64,000 bases of DNA from a phage (GCA_024683775.1 GCA_024683775.1_4106.1), one strand, 5' to 3'; positions 9,161 through 16,908 are shown, numbered from the stretch's first letter. The notes: generated from the sequence alone by a model not told the origin. Translations and numbers: made by a program.

Positions 9161-9463
9161 ATGAAAATTAAAATGATTAACGATTATGTACTGGTTCGTC
9201 AAATTGAAGCACAGAATAAAAGTACTGGTGGTATTATCCTAGGAAACGTGGAACCACCATGTGTTGGTATGGTGATTTCAGTTGGTGAAGGTAAAGTACT
9301 ACCTAATGGGCAAATTGCAGAACATAATATTTGTGTTGGTGATATGGTTGTATTCGGTCGCTCATCACTAAACACTCCTATCACTGAAGATCTTGGTGGT
9401 GGTGAAGACACATATTATGTGATGAAAATTGAAGAAATTTTTGGTAAGAAATCAAATGGCTAA
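9161..9463 (+). CDS. GroES-like co-chaperonin (gp31-like)
   Basis: DYVLVRQIEAQNKSTGGIILG ... VGDMVVFG matches the Cpn10 pattern; GGAGG 7 nt upstream of ATG 9161. Confidence 0.6.
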   Translation: MKIKMINDYVLVRQIEAQNKSTGGIILGNVEPPCVGMVISVGEGKVLPNGQIAEHNICVGDMVVFGRSSLNTPITEDLGGGEDTYYVMKIEEIFGKKSNG

Positions 9464-10181
9464 AAAAAGGTTTATTCCTTTCTGGATGGTCCCCGCTCAT
9501 TGGGGACTTTCTGGTAAAGCGAAAGAGATTGCGAAAGCATACTACTATAACGATGATTATGAAGCTGATATGTTAGTTGCAGAACTTACATATCTAACAC
9601 CATATGAAGTTGATGTAGCACAGTTGGATATCAAAAAGAAATACAATGTATTAGAAACTCTTGATTATCTAATAGCACAGGCAGATGTACAATTGAAGTA
9701 TTCCAAGATTACCCGTGATGAGTATAATGTAAAATTACTTGATGCTAAATTAAGTACTGGTGCAATTACTCAAAAAGAGTATGATATGGAAGTAATCGAA
9801 CTAATGCCTGATGGTGATGACAAACGTCTTAAAGCTATCGAGTTTGCATATCGTTATGAAGAGATTACACAACAAGAGTATTCAAAGGAAATCTTTACTT
9901 TACGTAAAGAACCTTGGATTGATTTGGATGTAGTACTTAATCCAGAAACAAATGAAGTTGAATTTGTTTTTGATTATAATGAATACTTTTGGAAAAAGTT
10001 AAAAGCGGAAGGTCATCCAGGTAATGACGAAGAAGAAATTATTGACAACTTCGTTAGAGACATGGGGCGTAAACTAGCTACGGATGATTTCAGTGATGAT
10101 TATGACGTAAAGCTAGTGAATGCGAACGAAGGGTTAGAGAATCTACCTGGTTTACCTGAAGGGTTCCGTTCATACAAATAA
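9456..10181 (+). CDS. hypothetical protein with ITxxEY repeats
   Basis: ORF overlapping the GroES-like stop by 8 nt; repeated ITRDEY / ITQKEY / ITQQEY motifs. Confidence 0.4.
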   Translation: MAKKRFIPFWMVPAHWGLSGKAKEIAKAYYYNDDYEADMLVAELTYLTPYEVDVAQLDIKKKYNVLETLDYLIAQADVQLKYSKITRDEYNVKLLDAKLSTGAITQKEYDMEVIELMPDGDDKRLKAIEFAYRYEEITQQEYSKEIFTLRKEPWIDLDVVLNPETNEVEFVFDYNEYFWKKLKAEGHPGNDEEEIIDNFVRDMGRKLATDDFSDDYDVKLVNANEGLENLPGLPEGFRSYK

Positions 10182-10214
10182 AAAAAGGAGAGCAAAAGCT
10201 CTCCTTTTCTTTTA
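10181..10214. terminator. bidirectional terminator between convergent genes
   Basis: A-run, GGAGAGC-AAAA-GCTCTCC hairpin, T-run. Confidence 0.6.
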
Positions 10215-10225
10215 TCTTTAATTTA

Positions 10226-10915
10226 TTAAACCATCGCTGGGATGAATTTGAATAGTTTGATACCGAAGTCACCAGCAGCATCAGCAGCTTGGGAACGTAG
10301 AACAACTTCAGTAACACCATCTTTAGCGAGTAGTGGAACTGCGGTTAGGTCATCAATTAGTAGACGGCCTTCTTCGATCTCAGTACTTGGAACGCCTTGG
10401 AAAGATTGAATATCTTTATCAAATACGTTAGCACGTTCAACGAGGAAAGTAACTACTGATGCACTAGCGATATCAACAGCACCAACACTTAGGATACCGT
10501 CAGCAGCGTTGGTAAAACCAGTAACTGCAAATGGTTCAGCGTCGTTGCCAGCGATTTCGGAAGTAGCGATGATAACTGCACGTTGTTGAACAACATCAAC
10601 GATACGTTTAACGTTAGTTTGTGCAGCGTAAGCAGCGTTATAATCAGCTTCTAGAGTTGCTGCTTCAAATGGAGTACCATCGATACGGATGATACCTTTT
10701 TCGTTTAGATATGCAACGATTTCATCAGCTACGTCAGTGTTTAGGAAACGTTGTAGACCAGCGAAAGAACCAACTGCACCAGTAACACGCACGTTAACAT
10801 TACCAATTTTACTAATTGCGATAGATGCTAGGGCGTTTTTGCCACAGAAGTAACCTAGAATTTTATCAAAGGAATAACCATTGATACGTTCAAAAGAAGT
10901 ATTAGTATTAGACAT
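10226..10915 (-). CDS. abundant late protein, paralog B (probable virion structural protein)
   Basis: 229 aa, Ala/Gly/Val/Thr-rich, strongly biased codons; paralogous to 10931-11530 (QQRAV(I/L)..TS and ER..VFDK motifs); GGGGGA RBS. Confidence 0.5.
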   Translation of the reverse strand: MSNTNTSFERINGYSFDKILGYFCGKNALASIAISKIGNVNVRVTGAVGSFAGLQRFLNTDVADEIVAYLNEKGIIRIDGTPFEAATLEADYNAAYAAQTNVKRIVDVVQQRAVIIATSEIAGNDAEPFAVTGFTNAADGILSVGAVDIASASVVTFLVERANVFDKDIQSFQGVPSTEIEEGRLLIDDLTAVPLLAKDGVTEVVLRSQAADAAGDFGIKLFKFIPAMV

Positions 10916-10930
10916 ATTGTAGTCCCCCTA

Positions 10931-11530
10931 TTATAGTTGTACTGGTAGAGCAGCACGAACTTTAATTGCAACAGCGTCAGCGGCAGCAGCATCACCAACA
11001 CCATCAGTACCTAGAGCAACATAAGATTTGGTACGGAAGAATTTAGCTTGTGCAATAGCTTTAGCTAGTTCAACAGTTGGATCAACTGGAACAGAGTAAG
11101 CAGCACCTGGGCGAACTTCTTGTTTGTCAAATACGTCTTGACGTTCACAGATGAAGGTTAGAGCAACAGAACCAGCACCACCTGTAACATCAGCACCACT
11201 AGTACCAAACGCGATTACGTTACCACCAACGGTTTTAAAGTCAGCAGGGATAACAACAGCGGTGTCTAGAGCTAGTACGGAAGTAGTAACTAGTACTGCA
11301 CGTTGTTGTAGTAGTTGGGTAATCATGAATTGGTTGTATTGAGCATTGCTGATTGCAGTTTGTAGTGCTTCATCTTGAATTTCGGAACCGTCAGAAGTAA
11401 CAGCGGTAGTACCAACTTCAACATCTGCTGGTAGATCAACAACGATGGTTACGAAACCATTGTTACCACCCCAGTATTCACGAGCAGTAGCAGACATACC
11501 ATAGTTACGGTTAAAAGAATTAAGACTCAT
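10931..11530 (-). CDS. abundant late protein, paralog A (probable virion structural protein)
   Basis: 199 aa; paralog of 10226-10915; GGAG RBS; late-type elements upstream. Confidence 0.5.
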   Translation of the reverse strand: MSLNSFNRNYGMSATAREYWGGNNGFVTIVVDLPADVEVGTTAVTSDGSEIQDEALQTAISNAQYNQFMITQLLQQRAVLVTTSVLALDTAVVIPADFKTVGGNVIAFGTSGADVTGGAGSVALTFICERQDVFDKQEVRPGAAYSVPVDPTVELAKAIAQAKFFRTKSYVALGTDGVGDAAAADAVAIKVRAALPVQL

Positions 11531-11572
11531 AAAAATCTCCTTGTCAAATTTTGTGCAGGAACACCCTGCTTA

Positions 11573-11647
11573 ATATTATTTATCAAAAAATATAAACCAC
11601 ATTTAAATTTAAGGCAATATTCCCTGATCTCTATGATATTATTTATC
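11573..11647 (-). promoter_or_regulatory. two copies of late-promoter-like GATAAATAATAT element
   Basis: Minus-strand GATAAATAATAT at 11584-11573 and 11647-11636, 40-115 nt upstream of the start at 11530. Confidence 0.4.
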
Positions 11648-11651
11648 AAAT

Positions 11652-16908
<5,257 letters not shown>

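What the first reader, a model, noticed from the sequence alone, without database searches (positions are those of the whole stretch)
10226..11569. Tandem paralogous abundant late proteins with a 5' UTR hairpin
Two adjacent minus-strand genes (199 and 229 aa) share conserved blocks, have strongly biased codon usage and strong SD sequences, and follow duplicated late-type elements. The leader carries a GCAGG-AACAC-CCTGC hairpin (11555-11569) about 20 nt upstream of the SD. This suggests a duplicated major virion component (tube, decoration or similar) with a stabilising 5' structure.
Basis: partly seen in the sequence, partly recalled or inferred. Interest (0 to 1): 0.4.

Follow-up and report, generated by a model that had tools for sequence, protein, structure and literature searches.

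The report
Abundant paralogous jumbo-phage virion proteins
This is a late two-gene operon of a RaK2-like jumbo coliphage that makes two related, very abundant virion proteins first described in 2013, whose place in the particle is still unassigned; a conserved hairpin probably starts its mRNA.

Summary
Two minus-strand genes (10931-11530, 199 aa; 10226-10915, 229 aa) are full-length paralogues. They have the strongest codon bias of 62 genes in the window. They lie between a 15-nt exact direct repeat carrying two ATAAATA late-promoter motifs and a bidirectional terminator.

The window is a RaK2-like jumbo coliphage, 99.7% identical to phage BF17. The genes are orthologues of RaK2 gp107w/gp106w, CBB_271/270 and phAPEC6 gp210/gp211. 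Three published virion proteomes detect them, with 56-91% sequence coverage in the CBB and phAPEC6 tables and gel bands in RaK2. The gene pair, its paralogy and its abundance have been known since 2013.

New here:
- The 5-bp hairpin is conserved across the clade with compensatory changes. It starts 7 nt after the proximal ATAAATA, so it probably sits at the extreme 5' end of the mRNA, which suggests a stabiliser (inferred).
Tube-family genes sit next to the sheath gene, and confident AF2 models match no PDB fold.

Their location in the virion is unresolved. My best guess is capsid-surface accessory proteins. The main rival is the inner body.

The parts
10931..11530 (-). Gene 1: 199-aa, 20.8-kDa acidic (pI 4.5) virion protein. 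Orthologue of RaK2 gp107w, CBB_271, phAPEC6 gp210 and 121Q gp618.
   Evidence: ORF. phrog_9326, E=2.6e-82. Orthologues and synteny. Virion MS in relatives. AF2 pLDDT 86.8. pI.
10226..10915 (-). Gene 2: 229-aa, 24.3-kDa acidic paralogue with an extra helical insert. Orthologue of RaK2 gp106w, CBB_270, phAPEC6 gp211 and 121Q gp617.
   Evidence: ORF. phrog_9326, E=1e-80. Paralogy. AF2 pLDDT 81.7. MS coverage 69.9% in phAPEC6 and 91.3% in CBB.
11577..11583 (-). Proximal ATAAATA late-promoter-like motif, inside the 15-nt repeat at 11573-11587.
   Evidence: Exact repeat. Invariant in 10 relatives. ATAAATA is the published predicted late promoter of CBB and GAP32. It is depleted in the window overall, yet 10 of 13 copies lie upstream of genes.
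11640..11646 (-). Distal ATAAATA late-promoter-like motif, inside the 15-nt repeat at 11636-11650. Its context, ATAAATAATATCATA, is the same as upstream of the phAPEC6 major capsid gene.
11555..11569 (-). Conserved stem-loop GCAGG-GUGUU-CCUGC, starting 7 nt after the proximal ATAAATA. It is probably 2-3 nt from the 5' end of the proximal-promoter transcript.
   Evidence: -8.2 kcal/mol. Conservation with variable loops of 4-17 nt. Compensatory stems in RaK2 (GUAAG/CUUAC) and the Vibrio phage (GCCAG/CUGGC, CCAGG/CCUGG).
11537..11542 (-). Shine-Dalgarno AAGGAG of gene 1. The spacer between hairpin and SD (AAAUUnGAC) is also nearly invariant.
10180..10211 (.). Bidirectional intrinsic terminator that ends the operon and the convergent 241-aa gene.
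   Evidence: Terminator scan on both strands. The UE-S1 and Munch records annotate a terminator at the same place.

Best explanation
This is a self-contained late expression cassette of a RaK2-like jumbo myovirus. It sits on the opposite strand inside the replication-gene region.

Transcription and translation (inferred from sequence and from T4):
- Two tandem T4-type late promoters (ATAAATA), read by the phage's gp55-like late sigma factor, drive a bicistronic mRNA for two ancient paralogues.
- The mRNA ends at a bidirectional terminator.
- Transcripts from the proximal promoter should begin 2-3 nt before a conserved 5-6 bp stem-loop. Such a 5'-terminal hairpin most likely shields the mRNA from 5'-end-dependent decay (RppH and RNase E).
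- Together with canonical SD sequences and extreme codon bias, this would give very high protein yield.

The proteins:
- Shown by others' proteomics on orthologues: they are incorporated, uncleaved, into the virion. CBB and phAPEC6 tables give MS coverage in the range of the major capsid and sheath proteins.
- Shown here: they have an alpha/beta fold with no relative in the PDB, plus a conserved but disordered N-terminal arm.
- Inferred, about 40-45% likely: they are capsid-surface accessory proteins (decoration or cement). They would account for the unassigned densities seen on the T=28 capsids of phAPEC6 and 121Q.
- They are not the tail tube.
For: Gene structure, paralogy, codon bias, repeat and terminator.

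Identity of the phage and conserved synteny (RNase H divergent, pair, then convergent 241-aa gene and GroES) across Asteriusvirus, Alcyoneusvirus, Eneladusvirus, Mimasvirus, Munch, a Vibrio phage and metagenomic contigs.

Virion presence and abundance:
- phAPEC6 gp210 and gp211 have 69.8% and 69.9% coverage, against 74.9% for the capsid protein and 68% for the sheath.
- CBB_270 has 91.3% coverage, the highest in its table.
- RaK2 gp106w and gp107w are among the five proteins named from the SDS-PAGE analysis, and they migrate at their predicted mass.

Late promoter:
- The ATAAATA motif is published for CBB and GAP32, together with a gp55-like sigma factor. phAPEC6 gp237c is annotated as a late sigma factor.
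- The motif occurs 13 times against 29.8 expected, and 10 of the 13 are upstream of genes.
- It precedes 9 of 15 genes examined in the phAPEC6 head-gene region, including the capsid gene.

Hairpin: conserved with covariation. It is unique to this operon among the late leaders examined.

Not the tube:
- RaK2 ORF042, 043 and 044, directly after the sheath gene, hit tail-tube PHROGs 4542, 45 and 13438.
- The two proteins hit none of those at E<=1.
- No tube fold is found by Foldseek.

Capsid-surface reading:
- phAPEC6 at 10 A shows an elongated second-layer protein in about the copy number of the capsid protein, plus a hexamer-centre protein. Both are unassigned. 121Q shows the same.
- The proteins are acidic, with pI 4.5.
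- They are unprocessed, although the phage has a T4-type prohead protease.
Against: - There is no localisation data for any member of the family.
- MS sequence coverage is only a rough proxy for copy number.
- No similarity to any known decoration fold was found.
- These phages also have a large inner body whose proteins are unassigned. Its volume would accommodate hundreds of copies of a 21-24 kDa protein.
- One metagenomic relative (L033) has a single copy at the locus and others have three. A fixed 1:1 heterodimer is therefore not obligatory.
- The transcription start has not been mapped. The 5'-terminal position of the hairpin rests on T4 late-promoter spacing, taken from my own knowledge.
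- The covariation rests on few independent events: RaK2, two Vibrio-phage leaders and the sixth pair.
Confidence: 0.6

Rival explanations
1. The two proteins are the main building blocks of the inner body. This is the radiation-sensitive proteinaceous cylinder around which DNA is spooled in the heads of phAPEC6 and 121Q.
For: - phAPEC6 and 121Q have an inner body of about 91 x 18 nm with no assigned proteins and no homologues of the phiKZ inner-body proteins.
- By my own arithmetic, that volume corresponds to several hundred copies of a 21-24 kDa protein. This fits the abundance seen.
- From my own knowledge, phiKZ inner-body proteins are also paralogous families.
Against: - RaK2 gp106w and gp107w run at full predicted mass. 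In T4 and phiKZ, from my own knowledge, internal head proteins are processed by the prohead protease, and these phages encode such a protease.
- The proteins are acidic (pI 4.5) and fairly hydrophobic, with no DNA-binding signature.
- The phAPEC6 authors favoured RCC1-like proteins for this role.
Confidence: 0.2
2. One of the two proteins is the tail tube protein, as the RaK2 authors suggested in 2013 and the first reader listed.
For: Size (21-24 kDa), abundance and beta-strand content led the RaK2 authors to this suggestion when no tube gene could be identified.
Against: - Three genes directly downstream of the RaK2 sheath gene match tail-tube PHROGs: phrog_4542 at E=4.5e-82 and 7.2e-79, phrog_13438 at E=1e-226, and the general family phrog_45 at E about 1e-4.
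- Proteins of matching sizes (25.1, 28.8 and 40.4 kDa) are in phAPEC6 virions. Their correspondence to the RaK2 tube-family genes is inferred from size and numbering only.
- The pair hits no tube family at E<=1.
- The AF2 models have a long central helix packed on a sheet and match no tube structure in the PDB.
Confidence: 0.03
3. They are another tail-associated or fibre-associated high-copy component. Candidates are the decoration rings on the sheath or the anchors of the hair-like fibres seen on these phages.
For: phAPEC6 shows unassigned brown decoration proteins at two tail levels and rings of fibres on the tail and capsid. CBB has tail whiskers with no assigned genes.
Against: - These features are low-copy: 12 copies per ring for the elongated decoration proteins, and an unstated but ring-limited number of fibres. 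That is hard to reconcile with coverage equal to the capsid protein.
- The pair is conserved in every lineage, including those not reported as hairy.
Confidence: 0.1
4. The hairpin is not a stabiliser. It could instead be an operator for an RNA-binding regulator (translational repression or timing), or it could act at the DNA level in late-promoter function.
For: The flanks of the stem (UUAAG upstream, CAnnAAAUUnGAC downstream) are almost invariant across genera. That is more than a passive structure would need.
Against: - The stem sequence itself covaries and the loop is free to vary from 4 to 17 nt. This argues against sequence-specific recognition of the stem or loop.
- No candidate binding protein is known.
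- A 5-bp stem is too short for RNase III (my own knowledge).
Confidence: 0.2

Closest known systems
RaK2 gp106w/gp107w family (PHROG 9326; CBB_270/271, phAPEC6 gp210/gp211, 121Q gp617/618, GAP32 264/265)
   Same: These are direct orthologues. They share the same two-gene order and the same neighbours (RNase H-like exonuclease, GroES), are 60-100% identical, and match the PHROG profile end to end.
   Different: Nothing material. The window's copy belongs to a species about 82% identical in DNA to 121Q and 99.7% identical to BF17 and WPEC3.
T4 Soc/Hoc-type capsid decoration genes
   Same: - High-copy virion proteins that are not proteolytically processed.
- Encoded by a lone late cassette outside the main morphogenesis cluster and on the opposite strand to surrounding early genes (T4 facts from my own knowledge; window layout).
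- Unassigned decoration densities exist on the relatives' capsids.
   Different: There is no sequence or fold similarity to Soc, Hoc, gpD, Dec or any other PDB structure. Binding to the capsid has not been shown.
T4 late promoter (TATAAATA with gp55)
   Same: - The core ATAAATA is invariant.
- A gp55-like late sigma factor is encoded by relatives.
- The motif is concentrated upstream of structural genes.
   Different: - The first T of the T4 octamer is often G here (GATAAATA).
- Per the CBB authors, gp33 and gp45 homologues were not detected.
- No transcript mapping exists.
5'-terminal stabiliser hairpins of E. coli mRNAs (ompA hp1 type; Emory, Bouvet and Belasco 1992; own knowledge)
   Same: A short GC-rich stem-loop is predicted within 2-3 nt of the 5' end of a very highly expressed mRNA. 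The structure is conserved rather than the sequence.
   Different: The 5' end and the half-life are unmeasured. The distal promoter's transcripts would carry the hairpin internally.

Membership tests
PHROG 9326 / RaK2 gp106w-gp107w virion protein family | Full-length profile match | tested here: met
   E=2.6e-82 (residues 1-199 on profile 1-195) and E=1e-80 (residues 4-229 on profile 2-195).
PHROG 9326 / RaK2 gp106w-gp107w virion protein family | Tandem pair between the RNase H-like exonuclease gene and the GroES block | tested here: met
   The same order is seen in 121Q, RaK2, phAPEC6, JNE01, UE-S1, Munch, BF, GAP32, CBB, fHe-Yen9-04, a Vibrio phage and metagenomic contigs.
PHROG 9326 / RaK2 gp106w-gp107w virion protein family | Presence in purified virions | not testable with these tools
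   Shown only for the orthologues in RaK2, CBB and phAPEC6 by MS. Not measured for this phage.
Myovirus tail tube proteins (T4 gp19-like; PHROGs 45, 4542, 13438) | Sequence-profile match to a tube family | tested here: not met
   No tube PHROG at E<=1 and no Pfam hit. RaK2 ORF042-044 do match the tube PHROGs.
Myovirus tail tube proteins (T4 gp19-like; PHROGs 45, 4542, 13438) | Tube fold (beta-sandwich with a long hairpin) | tested here: not met
   Foldseek of both AF2 models against 350,542 PDB chains gives a best E of 0.04-0.05 at TM<0.2, with no tube proteins listed.
Myovirus tail tube proteins (T4 gp19-like; PHROGs 45, 4542, 13438) | Gene adjacent to the sheath gene | tested here: not met
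   In RaK2 the sheath gene is ORF041 at about 22-25 kb, while the pair is ORF106/107 at about 98 kb.
Known capsid decoration folds (gpD/beta-tulip, Soc, Hoc/Ig-like, Dec OB-fold) | Fold or sequence similarity to a solved decoration protein | tested here: not met
   BFVD returns only uncharacterised proteins, the top hits presumably family members.
Known capsid decoration folds (gpD/beta-tulip, Soc, Hoc/Ig-like, Dec OB-fold) | Binding to the outer surface of the mature capsid | not testable with these tools
   Needs cryo-EM at side-chain resolution or immunolabelling. The 10 A map of phAPEC6 leaves the densities unassigned.
T4-type late promoter | (T)ATAAATA core about 6 nt upstream of the start, enriched before late genes | tested here: inconclusive
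   The core is present twice and invariant in relatives. The enrichment pattern fits. The start site and the sigma dependence are unmapped.
5'-terminal mRNA stabiliser hairpin | Conserved base-paired structure | tested here: met
   96.8% of cells paired. Five of six pairs show changes on both sides. 0 of 500 shuffles reach this, and slid registers give 29-39% paired.
5'-terminal mRNA stabiliser hairpin | Location within a few nt of the 5' end, and an effect on half-life | not testable with these tools
   The position is inferred from the 7-nt distance to ATAAATA and from T4 spacing (own knowledge). There are no RNA data.

The most novel reading that the evidence does not exclude
The pair, a fold absent from the PDB, is the main structural material of the inner body of RaK2-like jumbo phages. 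That would be an inner body built from unprocessed acidic alpha/beta proteins unrelated to those of phiKZ, implying independent invention of DNA-spooling cores. Alternatively, and about twice as likely but less novel, the two paralogues form the unassigned MCP-equimolar cement lattice of the T=28 capsid.
Probability: 0.2. Interest if true: 0.55.

Novelty: already known. Interest (0 to 1): 0.3.

Why it matters
The genes themselves are not new. Their orthologues were described in 2013 as abundant, distantly related virion proteins, and near-identical genomes already annotate them as virion structural proteins.

What is still open is where two of the best-detected proteins of RaK2-like virions sit. 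These are among the largest coliphage particles known. The 10 A maps of phAPEC6 and 121Q leave three features without assigned genes: a capsid-wide second protein layer, a hexamer-centre protein and an inner body.

This analysis contributes four points:
- It largely removes the long-standing tail-tube suggestion.
- It shows that the fold has no solved relative.
- It nominates the pair for the unassigned head densities.
- It adds a small, testable RNA element: a covarying hairpin placed directly after a late promoter.

Tried and rejected
Searches that gave nothing above noise for either protein:
- Pfam and NCBIfam.
- A PDB sequence-profile search, whose best hit was E=0.06 to SiaP.
- Foldseek against the PDB for both models, with no hit at E<0.04.
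- Foldseek against BFVD, which returned only uncharacterised viral proteins, the top hits presumably family members.

Other dead ends:
- An exhaustive profile search of 1.84 billion representative proteins found only 41 clusters. All have the same architecture, so no informative distant relative emerged.
- Longer relatives (290-300 aa) carry a GG(T/S)GY-type insertion with no Pfam match.
- Rfam on the region gave only sub-threshold, terminator-like hits.
- PDB sequence searches with the RaK2 tube candidates found nothing. The tube assignment therefore rests on the PHROG matches and on gene order.

Ideas rejected:
- An HK97-like reading of the secondary-structure order (N-arm, strand, long helix, sheet). 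Foldseek listed no capsid proteins.
- The hairpin as a general feature of late leaders. Other ATAAATA sites in the window and in the phAPEC6 head-gene region lack it.
- The hairpin as a terminator for the minus strand, because no U-run follows it.

Literature searches found no high-resolution structure of any RaK2-like capsid and no later functional assignment.

Full report
**What the window is.** The 2-kb region is 99.7% identical to Escherichia phages BF17 and WPEC3, 99.3% identical to fEgEco12, and about 82% identical to the Asteriusvirus phages 121Q, PBECO4 and phAPEC6. These are RaK2-like jumbo myoviruses with genomes of 350-385 kb. The rest of the window, read from the fEgEco12 annotation, is mostly replication and nucleotide-metabolism genes on the plus strand: DNA polymerase, clamp, GroES, RNase H-like exonuclease, terminase, gp32, RecA-like protein, helicases, ribonucleotide reductase and topoisomerase. 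The two genes of the finding are therefore an isolated minus-strand cassette inside that region.

**Checking the observation.**
- Genes. Both ORFs exist as described: 10931-11530 (199 aa) and 10226-10915 (229 aa), separated by 15 nt.
- Paralogy. They are paralogues over their whole length. BLASTP finds 35% identity over 83 residues, E=1e-6. Both match PHROG 9326 end to end at E about 1e-80. In alignments of 74-77 family members, nine columns are invariant across both types, from R8/R10 near the N-terminus to E129-R130/E160-R161. The longer protein has an inserted helical segment.
- Codon bias. It is real and extreme. The effective numbers of codons are 28.4 and 29.9, the two lowest of 62 genes (median 41, sd 5). 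Only 2-3% of codons end in G, and usage is almost exclusively CGT, GGT, AAA, GAA, CAA and CTA.
- SD sequences. AAGGAG lies 6 nt before the first ATG, and GGGGGA precedes the second gene.
- Repeat. The 'duplicated late-type elements' are a 15-nt exact direct repeat, TTTGATAAATAATAT, at 11573-11587 and 11636-11650. These are the only two copies in the window.
- Hairpin. GCAGG-GUGUU-CCUGC lies at 11555-11569, folds at -8.2 kcal/mol and is unique in the window.
- Terminator. A 14-bp bidirectional terminator at 10180-10211 closes the operon.

**Is the hairpin more than chance?** On its own it is not. The 73-nt stretch spanning the leader and the first codons folds no better than shuffles (z = -0.9), and a 5-bp stem is common. 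The comparative data change this.
- In ten relatives from five genera, both ATAAATA elements, the stem and the SD are conserved, while the loop varies in sequence and length.
- With more leaders from IMG/VR contigs and a Vibrio phage, the loop ranges from 4 to 17 nt, and the stem changes by compensatory substitutions. RaK2 has GUAAG/CUUAC. The two Vibrio-phage leaders have GCCAG/CUGGC and CCAGG/CCUGG. A sixth pair is U-A, C-G or U-G in different lineages.
- Counted on the alignment, 96.8% of cells pair and five of six pairs show changes on both sides. None of 500 shuffles reaches this, and slid registers give 29-39% pairing.
- The number of independent events is small, so this is good but not overwhelming evidence.
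- Other ATAAATA sites in the window and in the phAPEC6 head-gene region lack such a hairpin at this distance. It is therefore specific to this operon.

**Promoters.**
- The CBB paper reports ATAAATA as the predicted late promoter of CBB and GAP32 (35 sites before structural genes), likens it to T4's TATAAATA, and identifies a gp55-like sigma factor. phAPEC6 annotates gp237c as a late sigma factor.
- In the window the heptamer is under-represented: 13 copies against 29.8 +/- 4.8 expected. Ten of the 13 lie within 160 nt upstream of a start codon on the coding strand.
- In the phAPEC6 head-gene region it precedes 9 of 15 genes examined. The capsid gene carries ATAAATAATATCATA, the same extended sequence as the distal element here.
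- The stem starts 7 nt after the proximal motif. With T4 spacing (start about 6 nt after the motif; my own knowledge), the transcript would begin AAGCAGG..., with the hairpin 2-3 nt from the 5' end.
- That is the geometry known to protect E. coli mRNAs from 5'-end-dependent decay (ompA-type stabilisers; my own knowledge). This step is inferred, because no 5' ends are mapped.

**What the proteins are.** This is already in the literature.
- The RaK2 genome paper (2013) names gp106w (24.6 kDa) and gp107w (21.1 kDa) alongside the sheath protein and gp528 among the proteins detected from the virion SDS-PAGE analysis. It calls them 'two distantly related proteins', notes that they migrate at their predicted mass (no cleavage), and suggests that one may be the tail tube.
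- In CBB, CBB_270 has the highest coverage of all 55 virion proteins (91.3%), and CBB_271 has 56.4%.
- In phAPEC6, gp210 and gp211 have 69.8% and 69.9% coverage, next to 74.9% for the capsid protein and 68% for the sheath.

**Testing the proposed roles.**
- Tail tube is unlikely. In RaK2 the three genes directly after the sheath gene match tail-tube PHROGs: phrog_4542 at E=4.5e-82 and 7.2e-79, phrog_13438 at E=1e-226, and the general phrog_45 at about 1e-4. Proteins of matching sizes (25.1, 28.8 and 40.4 kDa) are in phAPEC6 virions; their correspondence to the RaK2 tube-family genes is inferred from size and numbering. The pair matches none of these families.
- AF2 models built on family alignments are confident: pLDDT 86.8 with pTM 0.82, and pLDDT 81.7 with pTM 0.78. 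They show a disordered but conserved N-terminal arm, a strand, a 26-residue helix and a four- to five-stranded sheet with short helices.
- Foldseek finds nothing in the PDB, with best E 0.04-0.05 at TM<0.2, so there is no tube, Ig-like or known decoration fold. BFVD returns only uncharacterised viral proteins.
- Sequence-profile searches of PDB, Pfam and NCBIfam are empty.
- The family is small: 41 clusters among 1.84 billion representatives. Every relative whose genomic context I examined keeps the same synteny.

**Most likely location in the virion.** This part is inference.
- The 10 A phAPEC6 capsid map shows three unassigned features. [quoted passage not shown] The second is a protein at each hexamer centre. 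The third is a 91 x 18 nm inner body. 121Q shows the same.
- Four properties favour a protein added to the outside of the shell: coverage in the range of the capsid protein, lack of processing despite a T4-type prohead protease, an acidic pI of 4.5, and a lone late cassette outside the morphogenesis cluster (as for T4 soc and hoc; my own knowledge). I put this at about 40-45%.
- The inner body is the serious rival, at about 20%. Its volume would also need hundreds of copies of such proteins.
- Other tail or fibre-anchor roles are at about 10%, and the tube at about 3%.
- Copy number at the locus varies: one copy in L033, two in most lineages, and three in the Vibrio phage and L035. A strict 1:1 heterodimer is therefore not required.

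**Verdict.** The useful additions are these:
- the tail-tube suggestion is now unlikely;
- the fold has no solved relative;
- the pair is nominated for the unassigned head densities;
- a covarying hairpin lies directly downstream of a conserved late promoter.

Interest is modest.

Noticed in passing
window 11653-11681 (+ strand): An extended -10 (TGCTATAAT, 11673-11681) lies 12 nt downstream of the block TGGGAAAG (11653-11660) and points at the divergent RNase H-like gene (start 11742). It is conserved in ten relatives and resembles the 'TGAAACG + TATA' promoter class that the CBB authors found before DNA-synthesis genes. The intergenic region therefore holds back-to-back promoters of different temporal classes.
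   Followed up: partly
window 10226-11530 and orthologues (L003, L004, L007-L009, L011): Leu is encoded almost only by CTA: 25 of 28 codons here, and 13-26 CTA in each RaK2-like orthologue pair (a majority of Leu codons except in RaK2 and fHe-Yen9-04). CTA is E. coli's rarest Leu codon (own knowledge), and the near-identical phage fEgEco12 encodes no tRNA-Leu. This is unexplained.
   Followed up: partly
window, 13 sites (for example 8888, 15558, 30483, 45567, 47565, 54072): ATAAATA is depleted genome-wide (13 copies against about 30 expected), yet 10 of the 13 copies sit within 160 nt upstream of start codons on the coding strand. Several of these precede genes inside the replication region that are annotated as structural proteins. 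This is consistent with scattered late cassettes.
   Followed up: partly
window 9456-10181 (+): The convergent 241-aa gene shares the terminator with the pair and follows GroES in all but one relative examined (GAP32, where its 3' end runs into the GroES gene). It is very acidic (pI 4.6) and has three IT(R/Q)xEY repeats that look SHOCT-like by eye. Some records label it 'virion structural protein', but it is absent from the phAPEC6 and CBB virion MS tables. It may be an assembly factor.
   Followed up: no
L012 708-2779; L035 7068-9390; L033 1501-2058: The family's copy number at this locus varies: three tandem paralogues in Vibrio phage 2.275.O and in a metagenomic contig, and a single copy in another contig. 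In the Vibrio phage, two of the three genes each have their own ATAAATA plus hairpin.
   Followed up: partly
P0147, P0149, P0151 (metagenomic relatives, 290-300 aa): These distant family members carry a C-terminal insertion of about 70 aa with repeated GG(T/S)GY / GGS(D/G)(Y/F) motifs and no Pfam match. It may be an added surface domain.
   Followed up: no
window 13259-15561 (+): The large terminase is annotated as three consecutive overlapping ORFs (228, 114 and 445 aa). This matches the split or duplicated terminase reported as typical of RaK2-like phages.
   Followed up: no
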